From the sequence record MK327932.1: 64,000 bases of DNA. One strand, 5' to 3'. Origin of the DNA: Escherichia phage vB_EcoM_G2248. Shown here in pieces: positions 3,867 to 64,000 of the stretch. Numbering within the stretch: the first letter of the stretch is position 1; each line of letters begins with the position of its first letter. The notes beneath the pieces are model-generated. The model worked only from the letters and a program-made list of their open reading frames with translations. It was not told where the DNA came from and did no database searches. The position numbers were made by a program, and so were the translations under genes.

Positions 3867-5666
3867 ATGCTAATGTTTAATAACTCCGTTAAATGGTTTA
3901 CCGGAATTGTAGAAAACAGGGAAGACCCATTAATGCTGGGGCGTGTTCAGGTTAGGATTCATGGTATACATCCCTCGCTATCCGCGCACGGTGACATTCA
4001 AGGTCTTCCAACCGAAGATCTATTATGGATTACGCCAGTACAAGATATTACAAGCGCGGCGATCTCCGGTATAGGTCAAAGCCCTACTGGTATTGTTGAA
4101 GGTTCAATGGTATTTGGTTTGGCTTTAGATGAACGTTATTTAAACTGCGTTATTCTGGGTACTATTGCCGGACAATATACAGAGAAACCACTCACTACAG
4201 AAGGTTTTTGCGACCCTTCTGGTGCATATCCTCGTTATATTGGTAATGATGTTAATATTCTTGCTCGTGGCGGTATTAACCCAGAAACCGGACAAACAAC
4301 AAAACCTGATAGTGTCTATATTCGAGATGAAAACACTGGAGTTGCAGTAAATCCAGACGACGAGCCATTAGACCAAATTCCGGTTGATGATAATCCTGAT
4401 TTTACAATAGAAAAAATGCTGCGGGGCGATGAGGGGTATCGCGAGAAATGGTATCTTGATTCAGAAGGATATCCGACAATAGGCATCGGGCATTTGATCA
4501 TTTATAAGAAAACCAGTGATCTTGGTATTATCAATAATGAACTTTCTAAGCTGGTAGGGCGTGAAGTTACAAACGGAAGACTTACCGCCGAAGAAGTTAG
4601 TAAAGTATTTGCTGACGATATAGAAAAGACTCGTCGTGATATGCGCAAACATCCACGAATTGCACCTGTCTATAATAAATGTAATGCCTCACGTCGTATG
4701 GCATTAGAAAATATGGCGTTTCAAATGGGTGTTGGTGGATTGGGTAAATTTAAGAATAGTCTTGCTGCGATGTTAGCGGAAGAATGGAAACAAGCCTATG
4801 ATGGATTACGTCAATCGGTATGGGCTAACCAAACTCCAGGACGCTCCAGCCGTGTTTCTAAAATTATTTTAACTGGTAACTTAGAATCATATGGCGTAAT
4901 TGCTCCAAAGAAAGAGGAATCAATTTCTGATGATCCGCGAGCACGTTTGAGAAATGCCCGTATTGCTGCCTATAAGACGCAGAGAGCAGAAGAAGACCCA
5001 GAAGCACCGTTTACCCCACAAGACACACGAATCATGTTTAAAGAGCCTAAGAGTTCGTATTCTGCTAGGTATCCTTATAACCATGTGTACGAGTCAGAGA
5101 GCGGTCATATTATCGAGATTGATGATACTCCTTCTCATGAGCGATATCATCGTAAACATCCTTCGGGTACATTTGAAGAAACCAGACCGGACGGAACGAG
5201 GGTAGAAAAGATTGAAGGCGATGATTATCTGATCGTTAAACAAGGCCGGAAAGTAAACGTTAAGGGTAATTTGCAAGTTGTTGTTGAAGGTGACGCGCAA
5301 GTTTATTATATGGGTAATGTGATGCAAACCGTTGATGGCAACGTCACTGAATTTATTCGTGGCAATGTTAATCAGACCGTTGAAGGTACTGCTAACATGC
5401 ATGTTGTTGGTGATGTTATCGCACAGCTTGACGCTAATTTGACGGCTAACGTCAAGGGTAATGCTGAATTAATGATCGAGGGTAACACTACCGAAACAAT
5501 TAAAGGTAACTATGATTTAACCGTTGAGGGTAATTTTAATATGACCGTCAATGGCACTAAATCAGATCAGGTTAATGGTGACTGGTCCCGTAATTGTGGT
5601 GCAAGCGTTAAAGATATTGCATCTGGTACAGTTCAAATTGATGGTAGCCGTATTGATTTTGGGTGA
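3867..5666 (+). CDS. 5: gp5 baseplate hub / tail-associated lysozyme (cell-puncturing device)
   Basis: N-terminal OB-like region; T4-lysozyme-like core EKMLRGDEGYREKWYLDSEGYPTIGIGHL; C-terminal VxGN beta-helix repeats. Confidence 0.9.
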   Translation: MLMFNNSVKWFTGIVENREDPLMLGRVQVRIHGIHPSLSAHGDIQGLPTEDLLWITPVQDITSAAISGIGQSPTGIVEGSMVFGLALDERYLNCVILGTIAGQYTEKPLTTEGFCDPSGAYPRYIGNDVNILARGGINPETGQTTKPDSVYIRDENTGVAVNPDDEPLDQIPVDDNPDFTIEKMLRGDEGYREKWYLDSEGYPTIGIGHLIIYKKTSDLGIINNELSKLVGREVTNGRLTAEEVSKVFADDIEKTRRDMRKHPRIAPVYNKCNASRRMALENMAFQMGVGGLGKFKNSLAAMLAEEWKQAYDGLRQSVWANQTPGRSSRVSKIILTGNLESYGVIAPKKEESISDDPRARLRNARIAAYKTQRAEEDPEAPFTPQDTRIMFKEPKSSYSARYPYNHVYESESGHIIEIDDTPSHERYHRKHPSGTFEETRPDGTRVEKIEGDDYLIVKQGRKVNVKGNLQVVVEGDAQVYYMGNVMQTVDGNVTEFIRGNVNQTVEGTANMHVVGDVIAQLDANLTANVKGNAELMIEGNTTETIKGNYDLTVEGNFNMTVNGTKSDQVNGDWSRNCGASVKDIASGTVQIDGSRIDFG

Positions 5667-12506: not shown

Positions 12507-12518
12507 GTGTATGATTTT

Positions 12519-12548
12519 AAAAGCCAATTCGAGAGAGTTGGCTTTTTC
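12519..12548 (+). terminator. rho-independent terminator after gp8 (GCCAA..TTGGC + T5)
   Basis: hairpin 12523-12542 followed by TTTTT. Confidence 0.6.
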
Positions 12549-12559
12549 CATTTTTGGTG

Positions 12560-12587
12560 TTGACAATCTTATTTGGTAAGGTATAAT
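12560..12587 (+). promoter_or_regulatory. consensus sigma70-type (early) promoter TTGACA-N16-TATAAT driving the inserted cassette
   Basis: TTGACA 12560-12565, TATAAT 12582-12587, then leader with GGAGG RBS and ATG 12617. Confidence 0.7.
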
Positions 12588-12616
12588 ACACACATCTAAA
12601 CAACGGAGGATAAATT

Positions 12617-12874
12617 ATGGCACGTCGTAAATTTACAGATAATTGTGAAGCAATTCAGGTATCCCCTTGCGGTTGGGATGTGATCGCGAACGGTGAAAAG
12701 ATTGGAGAGATCATCGATCATACTCATTCATCACTAGCCGATTACACCGATGAACTATGGGAGGGTATCAACTTCATGAATGACACTAAACGATTCAAGA
12801 CTATCGACGAAGCTATCTATTTTGTGTATAATCCAACTTTCGGTATGTGGGGAACTAGAAAATGGCACGCGTAA
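12617..12874 (+). CDS. hypothetical 85-aa protein (cassette gene 1)
   Basis: ORF behind early promoter with GGAGG RBS; starts MAR-; no recognisable domain. Confidence 0.5.
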   Translation: MARRKFTDNCEAIQVSPCGWDVIANGEKIGEIIDHTHSSLADYTDELWEGINFMNDTKRFKTIDEAIYFVYNPTFGMWGTRKWHA

Positions 12875-13188
12875 ATATTAAACTGCATTATACAATGGGT
12901 AAACCAAAACATCCAATGCATAAAGTGTTTTGGGGCTTGCATCTTCAAGAAAAATGGCATGATAACTATTGGTTTTGTGACCATGATAAGAAGTGGCATT
13001 CTCAAGATGAAGTTAATGCGATGATGGAACAGGGTATCAAATTTAATTACTCTAATTATGACCATAGCATTACTTGTATTCGAAAATTGAAACGGTTTAT
13101 TCGAAAGAATCCGCAATTTAAAAACTTTGTGTTCTTTATGTCTCATGTTTATTTGGGGCATAGCGTTACCGTAACAGCAAAAGGTTAA
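12862..13188 (+). CDS. hypothetical 108-aa His/Trp/Cys-rich protein (cassette gene 2)
   Basis: overlaps upstream ORF by 13 nt (translational coupling); starts MAR-. Confidence 0.5.
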   Translation: MARVNIKLHYTMGKPKHPMHKVFWGLHLQEKWHDNYWFCDHDKKWHSQDEVNAMMEQGIKFNYSNYDHSITCIRKLKRFIRKNPQFKNFVFFMSHVYLGHSVTVTAKG

Positions 13189-13191
13189 ATA

Positions 13192-14031
13192 ATGGCACGA
13201 CTTTCTAAACAAGAGCAAAAATTACACGATCGGGCGATGGAGTTGATTAATTCAGATCGTCCATTGACATTTGAAGAAAAAGAATTTTGCTATAACAACT
13301 ATCATGGCGATGGACTAGGTGGTTCCGGTGCATTCTTTACCCCAGAATGGCTTGCCTGGGATTTTACCATTGATGCATATTGCACCGGAAAAGTATTAGA
13401 TCTTTGTGCGGGGATCGGTCGCTTATCTTTTTGTATGTTACATCGTTGTAAGCCAGAAAAGATCGTATGCGTCGAACTCAATCCAGAATTTGCGCGGATC
13501 GGCAAGCGACTATTACCGGAGGCAGAATGGATCACCAGCGATGTATTCGAATTTGAGTCAAACGAGAAATTCGATGTTGTAATTAGCAATCCACCTTTCG
13601 GGAAAATCAATACTACCAACACAAAGGATGTATTTGAATATACTGGCGGTGAGTTTGAATTTAAAGTTATGACGTTAGGCCAGAAGTTTGCCGATGTAGG
13701 TTACTTTATTGTTCCTTCTAGTTCCGCTGGTTTTGCATATTCCGGCAGACCTTATTATGATGAATCAGTGAAGTCTAATAAATATCTAAAATGGAGCAAA
13801 CAAACTGGTTTGGTGACTTATGCCGGATGTGGGATCGATACATCAGTCTATCGCGATGAATGGCATAATACCAACGTTTTAACAGAAGTGGTTGAGGTTC
13901 GGTATTACGAGAAAGAAGCCGTAGAAGCGCCTAAATCGCGTCCTAACGAACAGATAGAAGAAAGTAAGGAGATTACCTTACCGGAACAAGAAACAGCGTC
14001 TGGGACGCTCTCAGACTTGTTTGACATTTAA
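13192..14031 (+). CDS. SAM-dependent amino-methyltransferase, gamma-class motif order (probable DNA N6-adenine MTase)
   Basis: motif X GAFFTP, motif I VLDLCAGIGRL, motif IV VISNPPFGK in that order; 279 aa; starts MAR-. Confidence 0.6.
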   Translation: MARLSKQEQKLHDRAMELINSDRPLTFEEKEFCYNNYHGDGLGGSGAFFTPEWLAWDFTIDAYCTGKVLDLCAGIGRLSFCMLHRCKPEKIVCVELNPEFARIGKRLLPEAEWITSDVFEFESNEKFDVVISNPPFGKINTTNTKDVFEYTGGEFEFKVMTLGQKFADVGYFIVPSSSAGFAYSGRPYYDESVKSNKYLKWSKQTGLVTYAGCGIDTSVYRDEWHNTNVLTEVVEVRYYEKEAVEAPKSRPNEQIEESKEITLPEQETASGTLSDLFDI

Positions 14032-54792: not shown

Positions 54793-55272
54793 TGCTAAAT
54801 CATTGCAGTATTTTAGTGCCTTAGTTTGAAATTCTGCGCTGTTAAGTTCTTCATAACGGTCATAATCACCGTTTAATGCTGCCTTTCTTGCTTCTTGCTC
54901 TATCTGCATGTCAGACATGATAATACAGCGATCCCGTGCTTTCAGCTTCTCAAGTTGTATAGACTCTTCTTTCTGTTTGCGCAATTCTTCTTGACGCTTC
55001 TTTTCTTCTCGTGCTTTCTCTTCCCGCGCTTCTTTGATTGCATCCTTGAACATCTGCGTTTGTGGTGCTAAACCAACTTTAACGCGATCCACGTCTCGAC
55101 GTTCCATTTTAGAAATAAAGCATGATTCGATCTGATCATCACTTGCATATGCTGCTTTACATTCACGAAGCAAGAAAACCGGATCTGATTTAGCATTCAT
55201 CATAGCTTCCATGTTGGCACAACCAGTAAGCATGAATGCAGCCGCAAGACCAATCAGTTTAATCATTTTCAT
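54787..55272 (-). CDS. putative lipoprotein with coiled-coil region
   Basis: signal peptide plus lipobox LTGC near N-terminus; E/K-rich helical segment. Confidence 0.55.
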   Translation of the reverse strand: MKMIKLIGLAAAFMLTGCANMEAMMNAKSDPVFLLRECKAAYASDDQIESCFISKMERRDVDRVKVGLAPQTQMFKDAIKEAREEKAREEKKRQEELRKQKEESIQLEKLKARDRCIIMSDMQIEQEARKAALNGDYDRYEELNSAEFQTKALKYCNDLAK

Positions 55273-56093
55273 TTAGTCACCTCACCGAAAATTGTAAATT
55301 GTCTACGATTCTCATCGCCGAAAGATTCTACTACGTCGTTTACCTTGACGCAAGTCCCGCGCGGTAAAATTACTTCACATTCGCAAGGATTCCATGCAAT
55401 TGACCCAACAACAAAACCTTTATGATCTTTTACGTCAATTACCCATGATACATTACAAGAATGTTGCATCTTTCCGGTCATTGATTCATATCGATTCTCA
55501 CAATAAAGGCTAGTGCTGTTTGATAGCCATCCTCCAAAGATGATCGGTGTCATGCTGGTCGATACAAAGTTTTTAAAGGTAAACTCCTTATCTTCAATGA
55601 TGCGCTCTATTGTCTGAATGTCAAGATGTTGACCGCGATAAAGAGTACCGTTTAACTTTTCGGTTTTATCCATGACACAATCCATCAAATCAACAATCTC
55701 TGATATCTCATCGGTCATGTCTTCTTCCCCTAAGAGAGCACCATTTACCCATTCGTATTGTTCAGATACATAATCACAGATTGCATTATATTCTGCTGGG
55801 GTTATGTTGTTATGTTTGTAATGTTTGAATACATTATCTCCAAAGTCTTCGGAGTGTACTTCATACATCACATTAATGATTTTCTTGACAAATCCATAAT
55901 CTTGTGTCTCGCGCTCAAGGAAGCGGATAACCTTCACATAATCATCAAAGTTAATCTGATCGCTGATCATCTCAGTGATCATGTAACCATTAATACCCTC
56001 AATGTCATATGTTTCGATGTAATTATCCATACGTTCCATCATTGATTCGCGTGATTCTTCTGAAAGACGAAAATCCTGTAATTTCTTGAACAT
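55269..56093 (-). CDS. ADP-ribosyltransferase paralog (Alt/Mod-like catalytic domain)
   Basis: R-STS-ExE signature: LYRGQ, FVSTSMT, NPCECEVILPRG. Confidence 0.65.
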   Translation of the reverse strand: MFKKLQDFRLSEESRESMMERMDNYIETYDIEGINGYMITEMISDQINFDDYVKVIRFLERETQDYGFVKKIINVMYEVHSEDFGDNVFKHYKHNNITPAEYNAICDYVSEQYEWVNGALLGEEDMTDEISEIVDLMDCVMDKTEKLNGTLYRGQHLDIQTIERIIEDKEFTFKNFVSTSMTPIIFGGWLSNSTSLYCENRYESMTGKMQHSCNVSWVIDVKDHKGFVVGSIAWNPCECEVILPRGTCVKVNDVVESFGDENRRQFTIFGEVTK

Positions 56094-56171
56094 TTTAAAC
56101 CTCCCATATAACAGAAAACGGGGCTAGTATAAAACTAGTCCCCGTTTGAGTCAACCATTATTTCTTAAAAA

Positions 56172-58223
56172 TTACATTTTAAATTTATCTGGCATTGCGT
56201 CTACAGATACCAGATCAGCGATAAGCTGACGTAGAGTTGCCTTATCTGCTTTCTTACGTTCGGTTTTAGCTTCGCTAATGAAGCTGGAGAAAGACAGGTC
56301 AGAAGCAGGTTTAACAACACCTTCACGGATGAATGCATCACCGTCCGCGATCATCTCGCCAGATTCTTGTAATGCTGCCAGTTCATTTTTGTTCATAATA
56401 TGTGCCTCAATGTAATAAGTTTCTTGTGAATCCGTCGATGCCGTAGCACGAGTTACCGTATCAAAGGATAACACAACACCGCGAGGAAGTAAAATCTCGC
56501 ATTCTTTGTAAGCAAATGCTTTGTTACCTACTGGCAAGACAGGGATGTTTTCCGCGCCAGCAATGGAGAAAGCAACATTAGCGCCACCTTCACCGCGAGA
56601 GCCAGCCATAGAATCAACACCAGCAACGGCACTAGCCACGTTTGCATTCCAGCCGCCAAAAATGTTAGGTGCAAGGGAAGTGCTCACATAGTTTTTAAAG
56701 TAAAACGCTTTTTGCTTACGTGCAGTTTCCCACATTTGCGACCGGAAGTCCATACCACGATACAGAATAGTACCCGGATCAAGTTTAACGCCATAGTTGG
56801 AGAAGGCATTATCCAGTGCATCGCACATCTTGACCAATTCTTCTGGATCTGAGATGCCTTCAAACTCTTCCAGCTTACGATCAGTTAGGAAGTTGTTCAT
56901 ATTGATGTATGCTGCATCGGCATATTCGCTCAACACAAAACCTTCCGCGCCTGGCAGATCAAGATCAATATCTGCCATCATTTCACCCATGTTACTAGCA
57001 ATTGCTTCAAACATACCGGAAGCAACATTACGCAGGGCATCGGTTTTAATCTGGGTGATATGACTACGCAGCATTTCAGCTTTTACATCTGCTGGCATAG
57101 ACTGGTCTACTCGATCCATTGCCAGGGCGGTGATCTTGTTTTCGAATACTTCCTCGCTCATGATTTCTTTTAAGCGTTTGATTGATGCTGCGATAACTTC
57201 CGCAGACAACGGATCATATTGATCCTGAACTTTTACCAGTTCGCTTACTGCGTATTTTGCATCGGCTTCGCTTTCAAAAATAGTACGCATGAAACCATAG
57301 CGAGTGATAATATCACTTGTCCAGTCATTCAGAGAACGGGCGGTTGAACGTTCTAAGGCTTGACGATCAATCAGAGTATTAAACTGTTTCTTAGGTTCGG
57401 CTTCGGTGATATCTTCTTCCGGTTTAAGATTAATTTTTTCTGGATGATTCACATAGTCGCTGTTATAGGTCGCTTGAGTTTTCAGCATTTCTTCTTTAGT
57501 CAAACGAGATTTAGCCGCTACGCGTTGTTCCGCTTCCGCGTTTCGTTCTTCTTCTGACACCAGACTAGCCGCATACGCCTCATCTTTAGTCAGAGATTCA
57601 CCAGTAGCCTTAGATACCCAGCGATCACCTAAATCACTTTCTACTTTAGTGAACAAGGAATCATCAAGTTTAATCCCTTTAATCTTATCAATCGCCATAC
57701 CGCGACGCTTGACAACAACTAAAGCGATCTTTTTGCTGGTCATTACTTCCTGCTGGAATACTTCAAACTTCGGTGTACGACGCACCAAACGCTCTATAAC
57801 GCGCTTAACCAGTTCGGTCTTACCTTTCATGCGGGATACGTTAAAACGGAACATAACAGCGTCTAATTGCGCTTTACGGGCTGTTTCCATAACCACATCA
57901 AAAGCACTTGCCATAACTGCAATCGGGTTATCGCCTAGACCATTTTTAAGCTGTACAATACGACCGCTTTTGTTCATTTCGCACAGTACAACATGTGCGG
58001 TCTTGTCACCCATACGAATGATTTTAGGTGTTTTGTTGGTGAAGTTACAAAGACGGACAATCACATCTTTATCGCGTGTCTGTACTGCAAAAAGCTGTTT
58101 AGGATTCTGCTTAGGCTTTAAGCACTGTACCGGAGCAATACTGCCAAAGTTTTCTTCCTCTTCCGTCAACAGCCATTTCTCGAAAGATTCAATCATTAGA
58201 TCGTCGATTTCTAAGTTAAACAT
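56172..58223 (-). CDS. alt: Alt-like ADP-ribosyltransferase (packaged internal head protein)
   Basis: 683 aa (T4 Alt 682 aa); ILYRGM, YVSTSLAP, AYKECEILLPRG. Confidence 0.8.
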   Translation of the reverse strand: MFNLEIDDLMIESFEKWLLTEEEENFGSIAPVQCLKPKQNPKQLFAVQTRDKDVIVRLCNFTNKTPKIIRMGDKTAHVVLCEMNKSGRIVQLKNGLGDNPIAVMASAFDVVMETARKAQLDAVMFRFNVSRMKGKTELVKRVIERLVRRTPKFEVFQQEVMTSKKIALVVVKRRGMAIDKIKGIKLDDSLFTKVESDLGDRWVSKATGESLTKDEAYAASLVSEEERNAEAEQRVAAKSRLTKEEMLKTQATYNSDYVNHPEKINLKPEEDITEAEPKKQFNTLIDRQALERSTARSLNDWTSDIITRYGFMRTIFESEADAKYAVSELVKVQDQYDPLSAEVIAASIKRLKEIMSEEVFENKITALAMDRVDQSMPADVKAEMLRSHITQIKTDALRNVASGMFEAIASNMGEMMADIDLDLPGAEGFVLSEYADAAYINMNNFLTDRKLEEFEGISDPEELVKMCDALDNAFSNYGVKLDPGTILYRGMDFRSQMWETARKQKAFYFKNYVSTSLAPNIFGGWNANVASAVAGVDSMAGSRGEGGANVAFSIAGAENIPVLPVGNKAFAYKECEILLPRGVVLSFDTVTRATASTDSQETYYIEAHIMNKNELAALQESGEMIADGDAFIREGVVKPASDLSFSSFISEAKTERKKADKATLRQLIADLVSVDAMPDKFKM

Positions 58224-58261
58224 TTTATATCCTCTAGTTGATAACCTATAAACCTATATTT

Positions 58262-58290
58262 ATGAAAACGGGGCTTAACGCCCCCTTTTA
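58262..58290. terminator. terminator hairpin (GGGGC-ttaac-GCCCC) flanked by A/T runs
   Basis: serves minus-strand gene 58291-58503; T-runs on both strands. Confidence 0.6.
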
Positions 58291-58503
58291 TTATAATGCA
58301 CCAGCAAGCAATTGCTCTAAGGTGTATCCTGAATAGTCTTTTTCAATCAGGGTATATTTTCCTACTCGTTTAATCCAGCCACGCATTTCAACGTATTCTG
58401 CGTAGTTGATGGTACGAGTTGTTCCATCTTCTAGCAAAGCAGTACCGATTTCGTTAATGCGGTCATAAGTTACGTCGGTAATGATGATTTCGATGTTAGC
58501 CAT
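58291..58503 (-). CDS. hypothetical 70-aa early protein
   Basis: behind early promoter cassette; starts MANIE- like gene 60385-60636. Confidence 0.5.
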   Translation of the reverse strand: MANIEIIITDVTYDRINEIGTALLEDGTTRTINYAEYVEMRGWIKRVGKYTLIEKDYSGYTLEQLLAGAL

Positions 58504-58539
58504 TTGATACTCCTTAGTAGTTCGTTTCGGTATGGGTGT

Positions 58540-58568
58540 ATTATGATATACACCCTCTGTTATGTCAA
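58540..58568 (-). promoter_or_regulatory. sigma70-type early promoter (TTGACA-N17-CATAAT, minus strand)
   Basis: plus strand shows attatg..tgtcaa; conserved leader cataccgaaacgaa and RBS follow. Confidence 0.6.
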
Positions 58569-58581
58569 CAACTTTTAGAAC

Positions 58582-58755
58582 ATTTTTGAAATTAATTCTG
58601 CTTTGATTTCGCAGAGAACATCTAAAGATTTCTCGTCACCCGCTTTTGCTGCTTCTGCTTGCATTTTTGAAATGGCTTCAATCTCAGTGCAATTATAAGC
58701 CGCTTGAACTTTAGCGATTGCGATGATTGCCGATTCGATGGTTAAGTGTTTCATG
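58582..58755 (-). CDS. small hypothetical early protein (57 aa)
   Basis: ATG behind conserved leader and GGAGAA RBS; below ORF-track cutoff. Confidence 0.4.
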
Positions 58756-58786
58756 TTTGATTCTCCTTTCGTTTCGGTATGTGTGC

Positions 58787-58815
58787 ATTATAGGGGATCG
58801 GTGACCCCCTGTCAA
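58787..58815 (-). promoter_or_regulatory. sigma70-type early promoter (TTGACA-N17-TATAAT, minus strand)
   Basis: perfect consensus hexamers; palindromic GC-rich spacer. Confidence 0.65.
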
Positions 58816-58822
58816 CAACTTT

Positions 58823-59341
58823 TTAGTTATTTTTTAATTGTTCATCTTGCAATAATGCAATCACATGCTGGCGATGTTCTTCCGATTGAGGCACACCGAA
58901 AAAGTTTGTTTTGTAGAAATACTCTAATCGGTCTTCTCGTGTGCTCTCTTCCATCATGATCGCGGGTAGTCCGAGATTTCGGAAACGTCGCTTTTCTGCT
59001 GGCGTAAAATCACTGTAATACAACATAGAATCATCATTACCAGCAATGCTAAACTCATCATTCATGAAGGAGAATATTGCGTTTAAACGCTGTTTACCGT
59101 CCACGATTTCGATCTCATAGCGAGAGCCATCATCAATCTTAGCCATTGCGATAGCACCAACCGGAAAATCATTAATCAGGTTTTCGATAAACATACGTTT
59201 GTTTTCGGTGTCCCATACCAAAGGACGCTGATAATCTGGGTTCATGTTGATATATCCATCTTCTAACCACGCCTCATAAACAGAGATGACAAAGTTTTTA
59301 GTATTGGTATAGTAACGGCGTTTAGGCGTTAAACGGTTCAT
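58823..59341 (-). CDS. stand-alone DUF262 (ParB/Srx-like) domain protein
   Basis: PDYQRPLVWD, FIENLINDFPVGAI and EIVDGKQRLNAI match the DUF262 signature (YQR..W / DGQQRL); start at ATG ~59341 preferred. Confidence 0.6.
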   Translation of the reverse strand: MNRLTPKRRYYTNTKNFVISVYEAWLEDGYINMNPDYQRPLVWDTENKRMFIENLINDFPVGAIAMAKIDDGSRYEIEIVDGKQRLNAIFSFMNDEFSIAGNDDSMLYYSDFTPAEKRRFRNLGLPAIMMEESTREDRLEYFYKTNFFGVPQSEEHRQHVIALLQDEQLKNN

Positions 59342-59342
59342 G

Positions 59343-59675
59343 TTATAGTCTCCTGAATGGATCATCACGTAAATCAATATCTTTTAAGAACTCATCCCAT
59401 GAATGGCGGATATTGTTCTTAATTCTCCAGATAAGCGCAGGGATTGAACGCTCTCCCATCTGGAAGTATGGATCATATGATCCGTATGCCCAATATGCTA
59501 CTACAATTCCACAATCAGCGCAATAGTATTCTATTTCACTTGCTGGCGACCAAAGTCCATCAATATGATCGGTGATCTTGCTTTCGATGTTATGGCTATG
59601 ACAATCAGGGCAACGGATGCAATGACCTTGTTTATCGTAATTTGACGTTAGCGAATACTTAAACAATCTCATCAT
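59343..59675 (-). CDS. zinc-finger-like small protein (110 aa)
   Basis: CIRCPDCHSH ... CADCG Cys pairs; overlaps neighbours by 4 nt. Confidence 0.5.
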   Translation of the reverse strand: MMRLFKYSLTSNYDKQGHCIRCPDCHSHNIESKITDHIDGLWSPASEIEYYCADCGIVVAYWAYGSYDPYFQMGERSIPALIWRIKNNIRHSWDEFLKDIDLRDDPFRRL

Positions 59676-60388
59676 AGATCCTTATTTGCTTCAAATACTG
59701 CCTTTGCGAATCCTCGCGGGGTAAGTGACCTGATAGTCTTTGTTTTCGTTCCTTTCCCGCCTAGCTTAGAATGCTGTTTACTGTACCCTTTATTAATCTG
59801 CAAAGGTTTCTTTTCTGGCATTATAAAGCCTTGTCCGGTCCATAAGCAAGTCTTTTTCGGGTACATATCACGGGCGGCAATATACTCAGGAAAAGTAGGA
59901 TGTTTATCATCTTCCGGCAAATAACCGCCATATTCCCACGGATGGAACATATAATCAGGCTTACGCCACATGCTAGAGATAACGCTTACAGGATTCTCTA
60001 TCATGTAGGGAACTCCTAGCCATTCACCCAAATAAGCGGTTATTTTAGCTGCCCTTACATCATGAACTTGAATCAATGGTCCTTGCTCTCGTTTCTTTCG
60101 TTCAAAGTGTGCAGCGCCACTAACAGCTAAATTGGTGCACGGTGGGAATGCAAAGATAATATCCGGTTTCCCCCATTCAAGGTCCATTGCTCTTTCCAGC
60201 CAGTTCAAATCAATCCATGTGTTTACATAGGTAATGTTTGGATGTTCAAATCGGGTATTATACTTTTTGTATGTACCGTGGTCGCCATCGTCAGCATTAA
60301 AGCAGATCACCTTATGACCTGCTTTAGCCCATTCTAACCCCATTATCCCCGATCCGTCAAAGTTGCAGAATATTAATTTTTGTTTCAC
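59672..60388 (-). CDS. minimal C5-methyltransferase-like protein (238 aa; motifs I, IV, VI, no obvious target-recognition domain)
   Basis: FCNFDGSGIMGLEWAKAG (FxGxG), IIFAFPPCTNLAVSG (PC catalytic Cys), YMIENPVSV (ENV-like); GTG start overlapping upstream stop. Confidence 0.5.
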   Translation of the reverse strand: MKQKLIFCNFDGSGIMGLEWAKAGHKVICFNADDGDHGTYKKYNTRFEHPNITYVNTWIDLNWLERAMDLEWGKPDIIFAFPPCTNLAVSGAAHFERKKREQGPLIQVHDVRAAKITAYLGEWLGVPYMIENPVSVISSMWRKPDYMFHPWEYGGYLPEDDKHPTFPEYIAARDMYPKKTCLWTGQGFIMPEKKPLQINKGYSKQHSKLGGKGTKTKTIRSLTPRGFAKAVFEANKDL

Positions 60389-60636
60389 GCTGCCCCCATT
60401 GGTTTGATAGTAACAGAATCTAAAAGACCTTTGTTAGCCAGTTCGCGGCAAGTTTTCAGATCCGCAACTTCCCAGCCAGCCGCAATCAGGTTGTCAATGA
60501 GGCTGTTAGCAACTTCTTCGCTCATGAAAGAGCACTGTTTGCCGATGGTGTAGCGTACACGCTGTAATTTCAGTTTACGGAAGCCTTTAACGTTCAGGTC
60601 TTTAGCGATTTTCTTTGCGGTTTCGATGTTAGCCAT
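60385..60636 (-). CDS. hypothetical 83-aa early protein
   Basis: first gene after promoter 60677-60705; starts MANIE-. Confidence 0.5.
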   Translation of the reverse strand: MANIETAKKIAKDLNVKGFRKLKLQRVRYTIGKQCSFMSEEVANSLIDNLIAAGWEVADLKTCRELANKGLLDSVTIKPMGAA

Positions 60637-60676
60637 TGTTTGATTCTCCTAAGTGGTATCTCGTCTTGATGGTTGC

Positions 60677-60705
60677 ATTGTAGGGGAGTTATCCTCCCCT
60701 GTCAA
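60677..60705 (-). promoter_or_regulatory. sigma70-type early promoter (TTGACA-N17-TACAAT, minus strand)
   Basis: palindromic spacer ggggaggataactcccc; conserved leader. Confidence 0.6.
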
Positions 60706-60712
60706 CACTTTT

Positions 60713-60886
60713 TATAAAATTATTTGTTAATTTCTGGTGCGTTGCTAGGATAGTAACCTTCTTTAACTCCGAGGTATTTCGCAACCATCCCTACAATCTT
60801 CTGTGCTACTACAATGTCAAATTTCAGATAATCTTCGCCGTGGGTTTCAATGATATATGCTTCACATGCTGCTTTAGTCTCGAACA
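60713..60886 (-). CDS. small hypothetical early protein (57 aa)
   Basis: ATG behind conserved leader/RBS; below ORF-track cutoff. Confidence 0.4.
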
Positions 60887-60920
60887 TTTTGATTCTCCTA
60901 TTTCGTTTCGGTATGTGTGT

Positions 60921-60949
60921 AGTATAGGGGATCTCCCGATCCCCGTCAA
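60921..60949 (-). promoter_or_regulatory. sigma70-type early promoter (TTGACG-N17-TATACT, minus strand)
   Basis: same cassette architecture and leader as the other copies. Confidence 0.5.
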
Positions 60950-60963
60950 CAACTTTTTTAAAA

Positions 60964-61245
60964 TTATTCGTGATTAGTTTCGATGTTGTGCATTTTGCAC
61001 CAGTTCAGCCAATCACCCAGATCCTGATAGTTAATGCTTTTATCTGCTGCCATCGTTTTTGTCTTGATACCCATATGTGCGTTATGAGTAAGCATTTTTA
61101 CAGTGAACTCGATTTTATCGCCTTTAGCTTTAACATCAACCAGTTTGGTCCACTGGCTACCAGCGCCGCGAATGTTCATGCCAACGATGTTTCCGATGTA
61201 TGCTTCTTTGTTTTTCATGATTTCGGTTGCTTTGATGAATTTCAT
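60964..61245 (-). CDS. hypothetical 93-aa early protein
   Basis: ORF behind promoter cassette. Confidence 0.5.
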   Translation of the reverse strand: MKFIKATEIMKNKEAYIGNIVGMNIRGAGSQWTKLVDVKAKGDKIEFTVKMLTHNAHMGIKTKTMAADKSINYQDLGDWLNWCKMHNIETNHE

Positions 61246-61278
61246 TTTTGATTCTCCAATTCGTTTCGGTATGGGTGT

Positions 61279-61307
61279 ATTATGCTATGTTCTTACTTTG
61301 GTGTCAA
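61279..61307 (-). promoter_or_regulatory. sigma70-type early promoter (TTGACA-N17-CATAAT, minus strand)
   Basis: plus strand attatg..tgtcaa; conserved leader. Confidence 0.6.
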
Positions 61308-61314
61308 CAACTTT

Positions 61315-61584
61315 TTAGATATTTTCAGAAATAAATTTTAAAACTTGACGTAAATGTTTCTCATCTTTGATAGTCGCCGGAAGTTCTTCTTTTACTTCTT
61401 GTGCAAGATAGATATTTCCGTTCCAAGTGAAAGATCCGTCTTCGTTTACGCGATAGCTGAACATCCACTCGCAATCATTTTCGATTTCATATACACACAG
61501 AAGGGTGTAATCGTTAAAGCTATTGATTTCAAGGTCGAAGCCGTGACGTTTTGCAAAGTTGGTAGTGGTTTTAGTCAGTACCAT
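61315..61584 (-). CDS. hypothetical 89-aa early protein
   Basis: ORF behind promoter cassette. Confidence 0.5.
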   Translation of the reverse strand: MVLTKTTTNFAKRHGFDLEINSFNDYTLLCVYEIENDCEWMFSYRVNEDGSFTWNGNIYLAQEVKEELPATIKDEKHLRQVLKFISENI

Positions 61585-61624
61585 TGTTTGATTCTCCTAA
61601 GTGGTATCTCGTTTCGATGGTTGT

Positions 61625-61653
61625 ATTATGCTATACACAGGATCTGGTGTCAA
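61625..61653 (-). promoter_or_regulatory. sigma70-type early promoter (TTGACA-N17-CATAAT, minus strand)
   Basis: plus strand attatg..tgtcaa; conserved leader. Confidence 0.6.
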
Positions 61654-61678
61654 TACCTTTTTTAAAAATTTTGGCAAT

Positions 61679-61708
61679 AAAAAAGCCGACACTAAGGTCG
61701 GCTAATAA
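61679..61708 (-). terminator. rho-independent terminator (minus strand) after gene 61711-62019
   Basis: reverse complement agccgaccttagtgtcggc followed by TTTTTTATT. Confidence 0.65.
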
Positions 61709-61710
61709 AA

Positions 61711-62019
61711 TCAACGAGATAGATAATCGTTTTGCGCGATCTGGTCGGCGTATGCTGGTGTTACGTCAATCGCCAGCACTTTAACGCGTGCTTTCTTGCG
61801 ACCTGGGTTTTCTCGTAACCAGTGCTCATGACCGTGAACATTTTTATACTGCGATGCTTCTTCGAAGGTACGGATCGGACCTGGGTAATCAGCGTAAAGG
61901 ATCTCTAGATCTTCGGTGATGTAAAAATATACATCGTAATTGCTGTTCTCTAGCTTAAGCAGAGACTTTCGGAACATTGGGAGATTTTCGCGGGTAAATT
62001 CAAAGATATTATCTTTCAT
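61711..62019 (-). CDS. small early protein, HxHW-family paralog 1
   Basis: HGHEHW and VLAIDVT motifs shared with three downstream paralogs. Confidence 0.5.
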   Translation of the reverse strand: MKDNIFEFTRENLPMFRKSLLKLENSNYDVYFYITEDLEILYADYPGPIRTFEEASQYKNVHGHEHWLRENPGRKKARVKVLAIDVTPAYADQIAQNDYLSR

Positions 62020-62045
62020 AGTATTATCCTCAATAGTTGGATGAA

Positions 62046-62072
62046 AAGGGGGGGGGGGGCTTAATGCCCCGT
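62046..62072 (-). terminator. terminator hairpin containing a 12-nt G/C homopolymer tract
   Basis: minus strand reads ggggcattaagcccc + C-run + TTTT; G12 at 62048-62059 on plus. Confidence 0.45.
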
Positions 62073-62075
62073 ATA

Positions 62076-62363
62076 TTAAAACAGTCCTTCCTGTACACCG
62101 TAGTAGAGTTCATCGCTGATAATTTCATTAATGCGACGGTGTGCATATTCCTGATTTGCGAAGTTGTCAGCAAGTTCTACTTTAGTTTCGCCGTCATGAG
62201 TCCATTTAGTGATAACTTTACCATCTGCAAATTTGAAGTTGAACTCTTTAGCTACCGCATCGCGTACCAGACGTGCAAACTTATTGTTGCGGATTGCATT
62301 GTCGGTTTCGTGTGCAGCGTGAGCGAATTTGTTAACTTTCAGAGTGATAGTAATGTATGCCAT
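62076..62363 (-). CDS. hypothetical 95-aa early protein
   Basis: ORF behind promoter cassette 62410-62438. Confidence 0.5.
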   Translation of the reverse strand: MAYITITLKVNKFAHAAHETDNAIRNNKFARLVRDAVAKEFNFKFADGKVITKWTHDGETKVELADNFANQEYAHRRINEIISDELYYGVQEGLF

Positions 62364-62409
62364 AATTTGATTCTCCTAGTTAGAAAGTGTATCTCGTTTC
62401 GATGGGGAT

Positions 62410-62438
62410 ATTATGCTATATCCCCGATCCGGTGTCAA
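62410..62438 (-). promoter_or_regulatory. sigma70-type early promoter (TTGACA-N17-CATAAT, minus strand)
   Basis: plus strand attatg..tgtcaa; conserved leader. Confidence 0.6.
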
Positions 62439-62444
62439 CACTTT

Positions 62445-62723
62445 TTATAAAATAATTTTTTGATATTTTTCTATGATGTTCGTGTAAGTCACATCAACCG
62501 CTAGCACCGTTGCTTCGAATCCACCGTTTAGCCAATGGCTATGATCATGATCGTGAAAGAAACCTAGACCAGTACGAAGACCTTCTTTATATTCTGCGCG
62601 TACATTCAGTTTGTCGTCGATAAACAGATAAAACCATGAATTTTTACTAGGATTGATGATACAACCTTTCAGATTAGGGAGAATATCACGACTAAGAATA
62701 AACTTATCACCTACTTTGAACAT
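62445..62723 (-). CDS. small early protein, HxHW-family paralog 2
   Basis: start at ATG ~62723 (GAGGA RBS); HDHSHW, VLAVDVT. Confidence 0.5.
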   Translation of the reverse strand: MFKVGDKFILSRDILPNLKGCIINPSKNSWFYLFIDDKLNVRAEYKEGLRTGLGFFHDHDHSHWLNGGFEATVLAVDVTYTNIIEKYQKIIL

Positions 62724-62737
62724 AATATTTTCCTCAC

Positions 62738-63046
62738 TTATAAAGTTTGACCGTTGTTTTTCGCGTAATGCTGAATGCGTGCTTGATCTGCTTCCGCTGG
62801 TGATAGATTCCATGCGATCACTACAACTTCTGGCGCATCATGATCATTATCACTTACCCAATGATTATGATTCATACAATTGTTTGCTATCGCGTGAGCA
62901 AATGATCTCATTACCGGAGACGTATAATCATAGTAACGGATTTTCAGATTTTCATCAACGTACAAGTAGATCGTATACGGCTTATATTCAGTAACCAGTA
63001 ACAGACAGTTACGCAATTCTGGGAAAATCTTTTTAGTTAATTTCAT
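62738..63046 (-). CDS. small early protein, HxHW-family paralog 3
   Basis: start at ATG ~63046 (GAGGA RBS); NHNHW, VVIAWNL. Confidence 0.5.
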   Translation of the reverse strand: MKLTKKIFPELRNCLLLVTEYKPYTIYLYVDENLKIRYYDYTSPVMRSFAHAIANNCMNHNHWVSDNDHDAPEVVVIAWNLSPAEADQARIQHYAKNNGQTL

Positions 63047-63047
63047 T

Positions 63048-63266
63048 TTATAATCCTCGGTCGCGGCTATAGTACACGGTACGCCATACAATTTCATGTT
63101 TCGTGTCGCTCCAGCACACGATCTCATTTACTCTTAAATCTTTGTTATCAACAAAAGATGAACATTGTGACGCTTCTTTCATCATTTTATCTGCTGTTTT
63201 CTCATCAAATACAGCACAGATTTCTTTATACACTCGATAATCTTTGAATTGACTCTGGATACCCAT
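63048..63266 (-). CDS. small early protein, FKDY-family paralog 1
   Basis: FKDYRVYKEI..KMMKEASQCSSF; in-frame ATG at 63266 preferred over GTG at 63278. Confidence 0.45.
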   Translation of the reverse strand: MGIQSQFKDYRVYKEICAVFDEKTADKMMKEASQCSSFVDNKDLRVNEIVCWSDTKHEIVWRTVYYSRDRGL

Positions 63267-63268
63267 AA

Positions 63269-63478
63269 TTAACACCACTCAAGAGTTTTTGAAAACACAT
63301 CTATCCATTGTTGAGTATATGCGGTTTCTTTCCATGAGACAATACCAGTAGAATAATGGTTTTTGTTTCCAGAAAAGGACGGGCATTTTGATGCATCTTC
63401 CATCATCTTTTCGGCGAACTCTGGTTCGTATACTCGCAAGATCTGTTGATATGCTTTATAATCTTTAAATTTGCTCAT
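63269..63478 (-). CDS. small early protein, FKDY-family paralog 2
   Basis: FKDYKAYQQI..KMMEDASKCPSF aligns with neighbouring paralog. Confidence 0.45.
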   Translation of the reverse strand: MSKFKDYKAYQQILRVYEPEFAEKMMEDASKCPSFSGNKNHYSTGIVSWKETAYTQQWIDVFSKTLEWC

Positions 63479-63743
63479 AATCGTTAACTACCTTATCAGC
63501 TTCTTTTATTGTTTTTACATCAACTGCGATAACCCGTAAAGGTTCGTCATGGTTCCACCAATGATCGTGAATATCGGCTTGTGATTTATCACCAAAGGAA
63601 TCACGAATATCATTTTTACATTTATAGCTAATGTGACCGTCATAGTCAACATAAAGGTAATTATCGAAAATCGGCGTTTTTAAGATCATACCGAAAAATC
63701 TTTCTTTGTGTGTCTTATCCAGCGTTGCAGTAATTCGCATCAT
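63465..63743 (-). CDS. small early protein, HxHW-family paralog 4
   Basis: IHDHWW, VIAVDVKT. Confidence 0.5.
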   Translation of the reverse strand: MMRITATLDKTHKERFFGMILKTPIFDNYLYVDYDGHISYKCKNDIRDSFGDKSQADIHDHWWNHDEPLRVIAVDVKTIKEADKVVNDYEQI

Positions 63744-63754
63744 AATATATTCCT

Positions 63755-63934
63755 CTTAGAAAGGGATGGTCATTTCTTGAGCTTGTACATTCTCGTTAGG
63801 ATTAAACTTCATCCAACCGATATTGTCTACCAGCATATGTACATTTTTATCATATCCTACTTGAGTAGTCAACACTAAATGTGCTTTACCTTCAACGATG
63901 ATTTCCATGTACTTCTGAACTTCGATAGCTTTCA
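63755..63934 (-). CDS. small hypothetical early protein (59 aa)
   Basis: ATG behind conserved leader/RBS at 63935-63950; below ORF-track cutoff. Confidence 0.4.
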
Positions 63935-63967
63935 TTTTGATTCTCCGTTTGTTGTCTTGATGGGAGT

Positions 63968-63996
63968 ATCTTACTACTCCCTTTAATCATTGTCAA
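63968..63996 (-). promoter_or_regulatory. probable early promoter (TTGACA with weak -10 TAAGAT, minus strand) at window edge
   Basis: tgtcaa at 63991-63996; -10 is a poor match. Confidence 0.35.
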
Positions 63997-64000
63997 CGAT

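What the first reader, a model, noticed from the sequence alone, without database searches (positions are those of the whole stretch)
58504..64000. Recurrent early promoter / leader / start-codon cassettes driving single small genes
At least eight minus-strand copies of the same architecture occur in 5.5 kb: optional terminator hairpin, A/T-rich upstream region, TTGACA, a 17-nt spacer that is often GC-rich and palindromic, (T/C)ATAAT, a conserved leader (cataccgaaacgaa or atcgaaacgagatac), GGAGA RBS and ATG. Some copies share even the first codons (MANIE- in genes 58291-58503 and 60385-60636). The same promoter-leader design drives the gp8-gp9 insert on the plus strand. This resembles the promoter-early-stem-loop (PeSL) type mobile regulatory cassettes described in some T4-type phages as mediators of modular gene shuffling.
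Basis: partly seen in the sequence, partly recalled or inferred. Interest (0 to 1): 0.6.

Follow-up and report, generated by a model that had tools for sequence, protein, structure and literature searches.

The report
Known PeSL promoter cassettes in RB49-like phage
The repeated promoter-leader-start cassettes are real, but they are the already published "PeSL" early promoter/stem-loop cassettes of RB49/phi1-type T4-like coliphages, and this window covers the same hyperplastic region in which they were first described, so the finding is correct but not new.

Summary
Eight minus-strand cassettes have -35 boxes at 58568, 58815, 60705, 60949, 61307, 61653, 62438 and 63996. All share an AT-rich upstream block (AAAAAGTTG), TTGAC(A/G), a 17-nt spacer, a -10 box, a conserved leader and GGAG(A/T)ATCAAA before ATG. 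The similarity goes well beyond the sigma-70 hexamers and beyond chance.

The window is a Krischvirus (RB49/phi1 group, 95-97% identical to many isolates). Region 58000-64000 is the stretch between alt and DNA ligase, homologous to phi1 ORF185-204. PeSLs were defined in exactly this stretch (Arbiol et al. 2010: "eight PeSLs in an ~5-kb area" around ORFan192).

Comparison with RB49, phi1, GEC-3S and UPWr_E1 shows three of four large indels with breakpoints inside the cassettes. Two of them left chimeric cassettes, with the crossover between the -10 box and the leader, as published for PeSL mini-circles.

Novelty: already known. Two points are not stated in the PeSL paper I searched: there are two leader subtypes, and the invariant 11-mer at the ribosome-binding site matches the RegB/S1 cleavage consensus at 10 of 11 positions. 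Interest is low.

The parts
58504..58590 (-). PeSL 186|185. -35 TTGACA 58568-58563, 17-nt spacer, -10 CATAAT, 8-bp stem GGGTGTAT/ATACACCC over the -10 box, leader CATACCGAAACGAA, GGAGTATCAA, ATG of ORF185 homologue (58291-58503).
   Evidence: 98/98 identical to RB49 186|185.
58755..58840 (-). PeSL 187|186. TTGACA-17-TATAAT (12/12 consensus), spacer palindrome GGGGGTCACCGATCCCC, leader CATACCGAAACGAA, GGAGAATCAAA, ATG of ORF186 homologue (58575-58754).
60637..60735 (-). PeSL 191|190. TTGACA-17-TACAAT, spacer palindrome GGGGAGGATAACTCCCC (fold z = -4.6), leader CATCAAGACGAGATACCACTT, GGAGAATCAAA, ATG of ORF190 homologue (60385-60636, MANIE...). It supplies the 3' half of the chimeric PeSL in phage UPWr_E1.
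60888..60975 (-). PeSL 193|191. TTGACG-17-TATACT, spacer palindrome GGGGATCGGGAGATCCCC, leader CATACCGAAACGAA, GGAGAATCAAA, ATG of ORF191 homologue (60720-60887). RB49 carries the extra ORFan192 module (537 bp) at this site. It supplies the 5' half of the UPWr_E1 chimera.
   Evidence: Literature.
61246..61330 (-). PeSL-like promoter 194|193. TTGACA-17-CATAAT, leader CATACCGAAACGAA, GGAGAATCAAA, ATG of ORF193 homologue (60964-61245). No stem-loop (fold -2 kcal/mol, z = 0.1).
61585..61710 (-). PeSL 197|194. Canonical terminator AGCCGACCTTAGTGTCGGCT + T6 (61703-61684), AT-rich tract, TTGACA-17-CATAAT, leader CATCGAAACGAGATACCACTT, GGAGAATCAAA, ATG of ORF194 homologue (61315-61584). It is a chimera of the two PeSLs that flank the ORF195/196 module in RB49 and UPWr_E1.
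62364..62460 (-). PeSL 199|198. TTGACA-17-CATAAT, 8-bp stem GGGGATAT/ATATCCCC over the -10 box, leader CATCGAAACGAGATAC, GGAGAATCAAA, ATG of ORF198 homologue (62076-62363).
   Evidence: 108/108 identical to RB49.
63936..64000 (-). PeSL 205|204 (upstream part cut by the window end). TTGACA-17-TAAGAT, 7-bp stem GGGAGTA/TACTCCC over the -10 box (z = -4.5), leader CATCAAGACAACAAAC, GGAGAATCAAA, ATG of ORF204 homologue (63756-63935). It heads a six-gene operon running to 62445.
56094..56171 (-). Related promoter/terminator composite upstream of the short Alt-like ADP-ribosyltransferase (55269-56093). TTGACT-17-TATACT, with a 12-bp hairpin over the -10 box followed by TTTTCTGTT. It does not have the conserved leader or the 11-mer.
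   Evidence: (fold -20.6 kcal/mol, z = -4.6).
12507..12616 (+). Plus-strand PeSL-like cassette after gene 8. Terminator hairpin + T-run, TTGACA-17-TATAAT, leader ACACACATCTAAACAAC, GGAGGATAAAT, ATG of an 85-aa ORF. It precedes two ORFs of unknown function and a DNA methyltransferase. It is present in all 58 matching phage records.
62044..62075 (-). Stand-alone terminator between the ORF198 and ORF197 homologues (GGGGC-ATTAA-GCCCC, then a C-run and TTTT). No promoter follows it.
58270..58284 (-). Stand-alone terminator (GGGGCGTTAAGCCCC + GTTTTC) that closes the cassette array before alt.

Best explanation
These are PeSLs (promoter-early stem-loops) of a Krischvirus (RB49/phi1-like T4-type coliphage), in the hyperplastic region between alt and DNA ligase.

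**Expression.** Each cassette is a near-consensus sigma-70 early promoter with an AT-rich UP-like tract. Unmodified host RNA polymerase reads it immediately after infection. It drives one unrelated small gene of unknown function, or a short operon, through a short, largely G-poor leader and a fixed GGAGAATCAAA ribosome-binding site.

**Insulation.** The G(n)-loop-C(n) hairpin lies upstream of the expected transcription start, so it would be transcribed only by polymerases arriving from the cassette upstream. It would then attenuate or terminate that read-through and insulate each module.

**Shuffling.** The roughly 100-bp similarity between copies gives the phage's general recombination machinery substrates. 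Crossovers between copies delete, insert and duplicate the flanked gene modules, each of which keeps its own expression signals.

**Shown here:** the sequence architecture, its non-random conservation, its orthology to the published PeSLs, and breakpoints and chimeric cassettes at three natural indels.

**Taken from the literature on orthologues:** promoter activity, hairpin terminator activity and mini-circle formation.

**Inferred:** transcription start positions, and insulation in this particular phage.
For: **Identity of the phage and locus.** The window is 95-97% identical to Krischvirus genomes. The region is collinear with phi1 ORF185-204 and RB49 ORF185-204. The cassettes are identical or nearly identical to the RB49/phi1 intergenic sequences.

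**Architecture and statistics.** The spacer is not conserved in sequence (0.34) yet is palindromic in 6 of 8 copies, with different stem sequences and positions. That points to selection on structure.

**Unrelated cargo.** The eight promoter-proximal genes are not homologous to one another. They fall in eight different PHROG families of unknown function and have no Pfam domain.

**Recombination footprints.**
- RB49 ORF192 (537 bp) is inserted at the AT-rich edge of the 60949 cassette.
- The ORF195/196 module (504 bp) in RB49 and UPWr_E1 is flanked by two direct copies of terminator + promoter + leader, about 100 bp each. The window's single copy is a chimera of the two, with the crossover in the -10/leader block.
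- UPWr_E1 lacks ORF191, and its single cassette is the 5' half of the window's 60949 cassette joined to the 3' half of 60705.
- ORF191 plus its cassette is 85% identical to ORF205 plus its cassette about 3 kb away.

**Polymorphism across the genus.** The ORF195/196 module is present in 17 records and the full RB49-type ORF192 only in the 2 RB49 records, against 63 records that match the region.

**Literature.** The PeSL definition, the lacZ promoter and terminator assays (the hairpin tested, from 211|210, is GGGGATCACGTATCCCC, the same spacer class as here), and mini-circles with crossovers between the -10 box and SD/ATG in this very locus. The RB49 early promoter consensus agrees with 5'-end mapping.
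Against: - No transcript or termination data exist for this isolate.
- Most hairpins are not followed by a U-run, so they are not canonical intrinsic terminators. Only 61703-61684 and the 56154 hairpin are.
- The 61307 cassette has no hairpin at all.
- One of the four large indels (ORF189.1, 246 bp) is not at a cassette. It lies between 16-17-nt repeats at two gene starts.
- Enrichment of breakpoints in cassettes is confounded by viability, because nearly all intergenic DNA here is cassette.
- The 'mobility' needs no dedicated machinery and may be no more than ordinary homologous recombination between repeats.
- The published mini-circle evidence is inverse PCR.
Confidence: 0.9

Rival explanations
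1. The copies are simply strong early promoters with an optimised 5' UTR, kept similar by selection for expression. Recombination between them is an incidental consequence of repeat homology, with no adaptive 'mobile cassette' role, and the hairpins act only in transcription or RNA stability.
For: The conserved blocks coincide with functional promoter and translation elements (UP-like tract, -35, -10, ribosome-binding site), while the spacer sequence is free. One indel uses short non-cassette homology, so any repeat will do. No recombinase or other mobility gene lies within the array. The exact leader + 11-mer combination occurs in only 2 IMG/VR contigs, one of them 164,706 bases long, the length of the Krischvirus ECD7 record. 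I therefore saw no sign of spread beyond this lineage.
Against: This does not conflict with the sequence facts. It differs only in whether shuffling is selected for. Three of four indels, two chimeric cassettes and a duplicated ORF + cassette module show that the recombination is frequent enough to shape the genus.
Confidence: 0.08
2. The GC-rich palindromes between or over the hexamers are operators for a dimeric phage or host DNA-binding protein that shuts off early transcription. They are not RNA hairpins.
For: Palindromes centred in a promoter spacer are a typical repressor position. Three copies share GGGG...CCCC arms.
Against: The palindromes differ in sequence, arm length, loop and position: spacer, over the -10 box, upstream, or absent. 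That fits conserved structure rather than a conserved binding sequence. The isolated 211|210 hairpin reduced expression of a downstream reporter when placed between a promoter and lacZ.
Confidence: 0.03
3. The array is the remnant of serial tandem duplication of one ancestral promoter + gene unit. Cassette similarity would then be shared descent of whole units, not exchange of cassettes between unrelated genes.
For: Paralogous gene families do exist in the region: ORF197/199/200/203 homologues and ORF201/202 homologues. ORF191/205 are duplicated together with their cassettes.
Against: The eight genes directly behind the cassettes share no detectable similarity and belong to eight different PHROGs. 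Most of the paralogues lie inside an operon without cassettes of their own.
Confidence: 0.02

Closest known systems
PeSLs (promoter-early stem-loops) of coliphages RB49 and phi1, HPR3 cluster around ORFan192 (Arbiol et al. 2010, Genome Biol Evol 2:140, PMC2839356)
   Same: Same genus and same locus, with orthologous and near-identical sequences. Same layout: stop codon in an AT-rich tract, TTGACA-N17-TATAAT-like promoter, G(n)-loop-C(n) stem in the spacer or over the -10 box, Shine-Dalgarno sequence and ATG. Same density (eight in about 5 kb). Same association with indels, and the same crossover zone between the -10 box and SD/ATG.
   Different: Nothing essential. This isolate has the phi1-like topology at ORF192, lacks ORF195/196 and ORF189.1, and keeps ORF191. 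Two details are not spelled out in the paper (no hit for 'leader' or 'RegB'): the two leader subtypes and the invariant GGAGAATCAAA.
PeSLs of other T4-like phages (T4/PST and KVP40/nt-1 pairs; Comeau et al. 2014, PMC4122927)
   Same: Composite early promoter + stem-loop motifs concentrated in hyperplastic regions and flanking genes that differ between close relatives.
   Different: Their consensus sequences differ: TTTACW-N17-TAYWAT or TTGYVH-N17-TAWWAT, with AGNA-loop-TCNT or A3-4G3-loop-C3T3-4 stems. The window has the RB49/phi1 type: near-perfect sigma-70 boxes and G(n)/C(n) stems.
RegB/S1 endoribonuclease target sites in T4 early mRNAs (consensus GGAGRAYARAA; Durand et al. 2006, PMC1702504)
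   Same: An 11-nt single-stranded site beginning with GGAG at the Shine-Dalgarno sequence of early genes. GGAGAATCAAA matches 10 of 11 positions. RB49 encodes a RegB homologue.
   Different: Position 8 is C here, where A is strongly preferred in T4. Cleavage at these sites was not tested, and RB49 RegB is divergent.
Integron gene cassettes (comparison from general knowledge; not tested here)
   Same: Arrays of small, unrelated, individually exchangeable genes separated by a repeated recombination-prone element. Excision as small circles has been proposed.
   Different: Integron cassettes are usually promoterless, carry attC sites and need a dedicated integrase. Here each unit carries its own promoter, I found no recombinase or other mobility gene in the array, and exchange appears to be general homologous recombination.

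Membership tests
PeSL (RB49/phi1 type) | Near-consensus sigma-70 promoter, TTGACA-N17-TATAAT | tested here: met
   All eight copies have a 17-nt spacer and match 10-12 of 12 hexamer positions. 7 hits to the strict pattern lie in this region, against 1.8 expected in the whole window.
PeSL (RB49/phi1 type) | [quoted passage not shown] | tested here: met
   TAA + AAAAAGTTG/AAAAAGTG directly upstream of the -35 box in 7 of 7 complete copies. The eighth copy is cut by the window end.
PeSL (RB49/phi1 type) | Stable stem-loop (G(n)-loop-C(n)) in one of the described positions: spacer, over the -35 or -10 box, upstream AT region, or downstream of the -10 box | tested here: met
   3 in the spacer, 3 over the -10 box and 1 upstream canonical terminator. 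Fold z-scores range from -2.0 to -4.6. The 61307 copy has none (z = 0.1), so 7 of 8 meet the feature.
PeSL (RB49/phi1 type) | Shine-Dalgarno sequence and start codon of the downstream gene at the 3' end; conservation spread over about 100 bp | tested here: met
   GGAG(A/T)ATCAA(A) then ATG in 8 of 8 copies. Conserved blocks run from about -45 to the ATG.
PeSL (RB49/phi1 type) | Located in a hyperplastic region, immediately upstream of genes of unknown function | tested here: met
   The region lies between alt and DNA ligase. All eight downstream genes lack a Pfam domain and fall in PHROGs of unknown function.
PeSL (RB49/phi1 type) | Orthology to the published RB49/phi1 PeSLs | tested here: met
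   Local alignment score/length is 0.94-1.0 against RB49 or phi1 for 7 of the 8 copies. The chimeric 197|194 copy reaches only 0.80 over its full length, although each of its halves matches its parent cassette. Gene order is collinear.
PeSL (RB49/phi1 type) | Indels between close relatives have their breakpoints in or next to PeSLs | tested here: met
   3 of 4 indels larger than 200 bp do, and two left chimeric cassettes. The ORF189.1 indel does not.
PeSL (RB49/phi1 type) | Promoter activity, hairpin terminator activity and mini-circle formation | not testable with these tools
   Published for the orthologous or near-identical RB49/phi1 elements 193|192, 206|205 and 211|210, and for ORF192 mini-circles. 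Not measured for this isolate.
RegB/S1 cleavage site | 11-nt single-stranded GGAGRAYARAA at the Shine-Dalgarno sequence of an early mRNA | tested here: inconclusive
   GGAGAATCAAA matches 10 of 11 positions, with C at the strongly A-preferring position 8. Cleavage cannot be tested here.
Canonical intrinsic terminator | GC-rich hairpin immediately followed by a U-run | tested here: not met
   Met only by 61703-61684 (and by the 56154, 58284-58270 and 62070 hairpins outside the promoters). The six intra-promoter hairpins are followed by TATAAT-like sequence, not a T-run.

The most novel reading that the evidence does not exclude
The conserved part downstream of the promoter may be more than recombination homology. 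The invariant GGAGAATCAAA, and perhaps the CGAAACGA leader, could be a built-in RegB/S1 (or other RNase) target. Any gene captured by a cassette would then receive a complete early programme: strong start, insulation from upstream read-through, and timed mRNA inactivation. In the array, this 11-mer occurs only at the eight promoter-proximal genes and at none of the internal operon genes.
Probability: 0.3. Interest if true: 0.3.

Novelty: already known. Interest (0 to 1): 0.12.

Why it matters
PeSLs are one of the few concrete mechanisms proposed for how T4-like phages gain, lose and reshuffle accessory genes of unknown function without disturbing their expression. This window adds another natural isolate in which the predicted recombination products can be read directly from the sequence: chimeric cassettes, and a module flanked by about 100-bp direct repeats in relatives. 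That is useful corroboration and a good annotation. It opens no new question, because the phenomenon, the locus and the mechanism were published in 2010 and 2014.

Tried and rejected
- **T5 early promoters.** My first impression was T5-type early promoters. I dropped this when BLAST placed the window in Krischvirus.
- **Tandem-duplication origin.** Rejected, because the eight promoter-proximal proteins are unrelated.
- **Operator reading of the palindromes.** Judged unlikely from their variable sequence and position.
- **Spread of the cassette outside the lineage.** An exact scan of IMG/VR for leader + 11-mer found only two contigs, of 164,706 and 150,344 bases. The first has the length of the Krischvirus ECD7 record. 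I did not examine either contig further.
- **The generic scans.** The promoter scan (33 found against 25 expected) and the terminator scan (9 against 6.5) are not informative by count. Only the top-scoring promoter hits are the cassettes.
- **Desplats et al. 2002 (RB49 5'-end mapping).** This paper could not be read. I rely on the statement in PMC1524935.
- **Technical problem.** Loci fetched in parallel did not all reach the Python sandbox. RB49 and UPWr_E1 were re-fetched and reached it. G2494 and Brandy, although re-fetched, never did, so they were used only through their annotation tables and in one small alignment.

Full report
**What is in the sequence**

Reading 58000-64000 on the minus strand shows eight copies of one design. 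Their -35 boxes start at 58568, 58815, 60705, 60949, 61307, 61653, 62438 and 63996. Aligned (alignment A1) and dissected, each copy has:

- the stop codon of the upstream gene inside an AT-rich tract ending in AAAAAGTTG or AAAAAGTG;
- TTGACA (once TTGACG);
- a spacer of exactly 17 nt;
- a -10 box (CATAAT x4, and TATAAT, TACAAT, TATACT and TAAGAT once each);
- (A/G)CA(C/A)(C/A)CAT followed by one of two leader types, ACCGAAACGAA (4 copies) or CGAAACGAGATAC / CAAGACGAGATAC (3 copies), plus one degenerate CAAGACAACAAAC;
- GGAGAATCAAA (7 copies; GGAGTATCAA in one), then ATG 0-3 nt later.

The 63996 copy is cut by the window end just upstream of its -35 box.

**Is it more than chance or a generic promoter consensus?**

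Yes.

- The -35/-10 pattern occurs 12 times in the window against 1.8 expected, and 7 of these hits are cassettes.
- CGAAACGA occurs 8 times against 2.6 expected, 6 of them in the cassettes and in register.
- GGAGAATCAAA (up to 1 mismatch) occurs 9 times against 1.9 expected, and 8 are the cassettes.
- AAAARKTRTTGAC occurs 10 times against 1.6 expected, and 7 are the cassettes.

Mean pairwise identity between copies is 0.69 for the 20 nt upstream of the -35 box, 0.96 for the -35 box, 0.74 for the -10 box and 0.63 for the first 16 nt after the -10 box. It is essentially 1.0 for the 11-mer and only 0.34 for the spacer.

**The stem-loops**

The spacer is not conserved in sequence, yet it is palindromic:

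- G-run/C-run stems of 7-8 bp lie within the spacer at 58815, 60705 and 60949.
- Stems of 7-8 bp overlap the -10 box at 58568, 62438 and 63996. Fold z-scores for these six range from -2.0 to -4.6.
- The 61653 copy instead has a canonical terminator upstream (AGCCGACCTTAGTGTCGGCT + T6, 61703-61684).
- The 61307 copy has no stem (z = 0.1).

All the stems lie upstream of the expected transcription start. They would therefore be transcribed only by polymerases coming from the cassette upstream. Six of them lack a U-run, so they are not canonical terminators.

**What the genome is**

The region is 95-97% identical over its full length to many Krischvirus genomes, including LF73P4, FL15, E26, phi1, GEC-3S and ECD7. 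It lies between alt (56172-58223) and DNA ligase and is collinear with phi1 ORF185-204 and RB49 ORF185-204. GEC-3S already annotates promoters and terminators at these positions.

The eight genes directly behind the cassettes are unrelated to one another. They have no Pfam domain and fall into eight different PHROG families of unknown function.

**What is already published**

Arbiol et al. 2010 (PMC2839356) defined PeSLs in phi1 and RB49. [quoted passage not shown] Each motif ends in the Shine-Dalgarno sequence and start codon of a gene of unknown function.

They describe 'eight PeSLs in an ~5-kb area' around ORFan192 in HPR3, which is this locus. They also describe mini-circles whose crossovers lie between the -10 box and the SD/ATG, and propose deletion and insertion of ORF192 by recombination between flanking PeSLs.

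The elements they tested are near-identical in type to those here. Promoters 193|192 and 206|205 were tested in lacZ fusions. The 211|210 hairpin GGGGATCACGTATCCCC was tested as a terminator.

Comeau et al. 2014 (PMC4122927) give the RB49/phi1 signature as TTGACA-N17-TATAAT with G(n)-loop-C(n) stems. Nolan et al. 2006 (PMC1524935) note T or C at -12 and C-rich -3 to -1 in RB49 early promoters, in agreement with mapped 5' ends. Both features are visible here.

BLAST and MAFFT comparison against RB49, phi1, GEC-3S and UPWr_E1 finds four indels larger than 200 bp.

1. **ORF192.** RB49 has ORF192 (537 bp) inserted at window ~60964-60968, the AT-rich edge of the 60949 cassette. The window has the phi1 topology.
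2. **ORF195/196.** RB49 and UPWr_E1 carry an ORF195/196 module (504 bp) flanked by two direct copies of terminator + AT tract + promoter + leader, about 100 bp each. The window has one copy. Its 5' part, through the spacer CCAGATCCTGTGTATAG, matches the 197|196 copy. Its 3' part, from GAGATACCACTT onward, matches the 195|194 copy. The crossover is in the shared ATAGCATAATACA.CCATCGAAACGAGAT block.
3. **ORF191.** UPWr_E1 lacks ORF191, and so does Brandy by annotation. UPWr_E1's single cassette joins the 5' half of the window's 60949 cassette to the 3' half of 60705, with the crossover between the -10 box and the leader.
4. **ORF189.1.** This gene (246 bp) is absent from the window. The deletion is not at a cassette. 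It lies between 16-17-nt repeats (GTGAAA..AAAATTAAT) at two gene starts.

ORF191 with its cassette is also 85% identical to ORF205 with its cassette about 3 kb away, so this is a duplicated module.

Across the phage collection, the ORF195/196 module is present in 17 records. The full RB49-type ORF192 is present only in the 2 RB49 records, and 5 further records hold a version that is 78% identical over about half its length. For comparison, 63 records match the region as a whole.

**How it most likely works**

The cassettes are early promoters read by host RNA polymerase. The hairpins attenuate read-through from the previous module. The roughly 100-bp similarity makes the cassettes preferred crossover points for the phage's general recombination system. 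Whole gene + signal modules are thereby deleted, inserted or duplicated.

- Shown here: the architecture, its conservation, its orthology to the published PeSLs, and the recombination footprints.
- Taken from the literature on orthologues: promoter and terminator activity, and mini-circles.
- Inferred: the transcription start positions.

Caveats:

- One cassette has no hairpin.
- Most hairpins are non-canonical as terminators.
- Breakpoint enrichment is confounded by the fact that nearly all intergenic DNA here is cassette.
- 'Mobility' may be nothing more than recombination between repeats.

**A small addition**

The PeSL paper does not mention a leader or RegB. GGAGAATCAAA matches the T4 RegB/S1 consensus GGAGRAYARAA at 10 of 11 positions, with C at position 8. 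RB49 encodes a divergent RegB.

In the array the 11-mer occurs only at the eight promoter-proximal genes. It could therefore be a built-in mRNA-inactivation site. It could equally be nothing more than an efficient ribosome-binding site carried along by cassette homology. This is untested.

**Verdict**

The feature is already known, in this phage group and at this locus. Interest is low.

Noticed in passing
window 62048-62059 (minus-strand C12 in the terminator between the ORF198 and ORF197 homologues): This is the only homopolymer of 9-10 nt or more in the 64-kb window. The terminator reads GGGGC-ATTAA-GCCCC followed by extra Cs before TTTT. Six relatives have only 4-6 Cs at this position. It is either a real expansion that pushes the U-run away from the stem, or a sequencing or assembly artefact.
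   Followed up: partly
window 60372-60388: ORF189.1 (246 bp in RB49, phi1 and GEC-3S) is missing. The deletion lies between 16-17-nt repeats at the starts of ORF189.1 and the methyltransferase gene. As a result the methyltransferase (59672-60388) now starts with GTG, overlapping the stop of the MANIE gene. This is a deletion that did not use a cassette.
   Followed up: yes
window 58291-58503 and 60385-60636 (minus strand): Two otherwise unrelated proteins share their first five codons (ATGGCTAACATCGAAA, MANIE). The shared stretch contains CATCGAAAC, the same string as the type-B leader. This suggests that cassette homology, or an old crossover, extends into the coding sequence.
   Followed up: partly
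window 61711-62019, 62445-62723, 62738-63046, 63465-63743; and 63048-63266, 63269-63478 (minus strand): There are two families of small paralogous proteins in the region. The ORF197/199/200/203 homologues share an H-x-H-W ... V-x-A-x-D-V pattern. The ORF201/202 homologues are 41% identical. Most lie inside the six-gene operon behind the 63996 cassette.
   Followed up: partly
window 58823-60388 (minus strand): One cassette (60705) appears to drive a four-gene operon downstream of the MANIE gene: a DNA methyltransferase (PHROG 757, no Pfam hit), a zinc-ribbon protein (weak TFIIB-type match) and a 172-aa protein consisting only of a GmrSD_N/DUF262 domain (E = 4e-20). A phage pairing a stand-alone DUF262 domain with a methyltransferase might bear on DNA modification or counter-defence.
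   Followed up: no
window 55269-56093 and 56172-58223 (minus strand); 56094-56171: There are two adjacent Alt-like ADP-ribosyltransferase genes (683 aa and 274 aa). A promoter separates them, and its -10 box is buried in a 12-bp hairpin followed by a T-run. This is a fully overlapping terminator/promoter that lacks the conserved leader.
   Followed up: partly
window 12507-14031 (plus strand): The cassette after gene 8 drives two ORFs of unknown function (85 and 108 aa) and a 279-aa DNA methyltransferase (PHROG 3820), all inside the baseplate gene block. The insert is present in all 58 matching phage records, so it is fixed in the genus rather than variable.
   Followed up: partly
L007 (RB49) 4001-4065 compared with window 63936-64000: The RB49 193|192 cassette (TTGAAA ... 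TAAGAT, stem GGGAGT/ACTCCC) resembles the window's 63996 cassette more than its own neighbours. There may be a second, more degenerate PeSL subtype.
   Followed up: no
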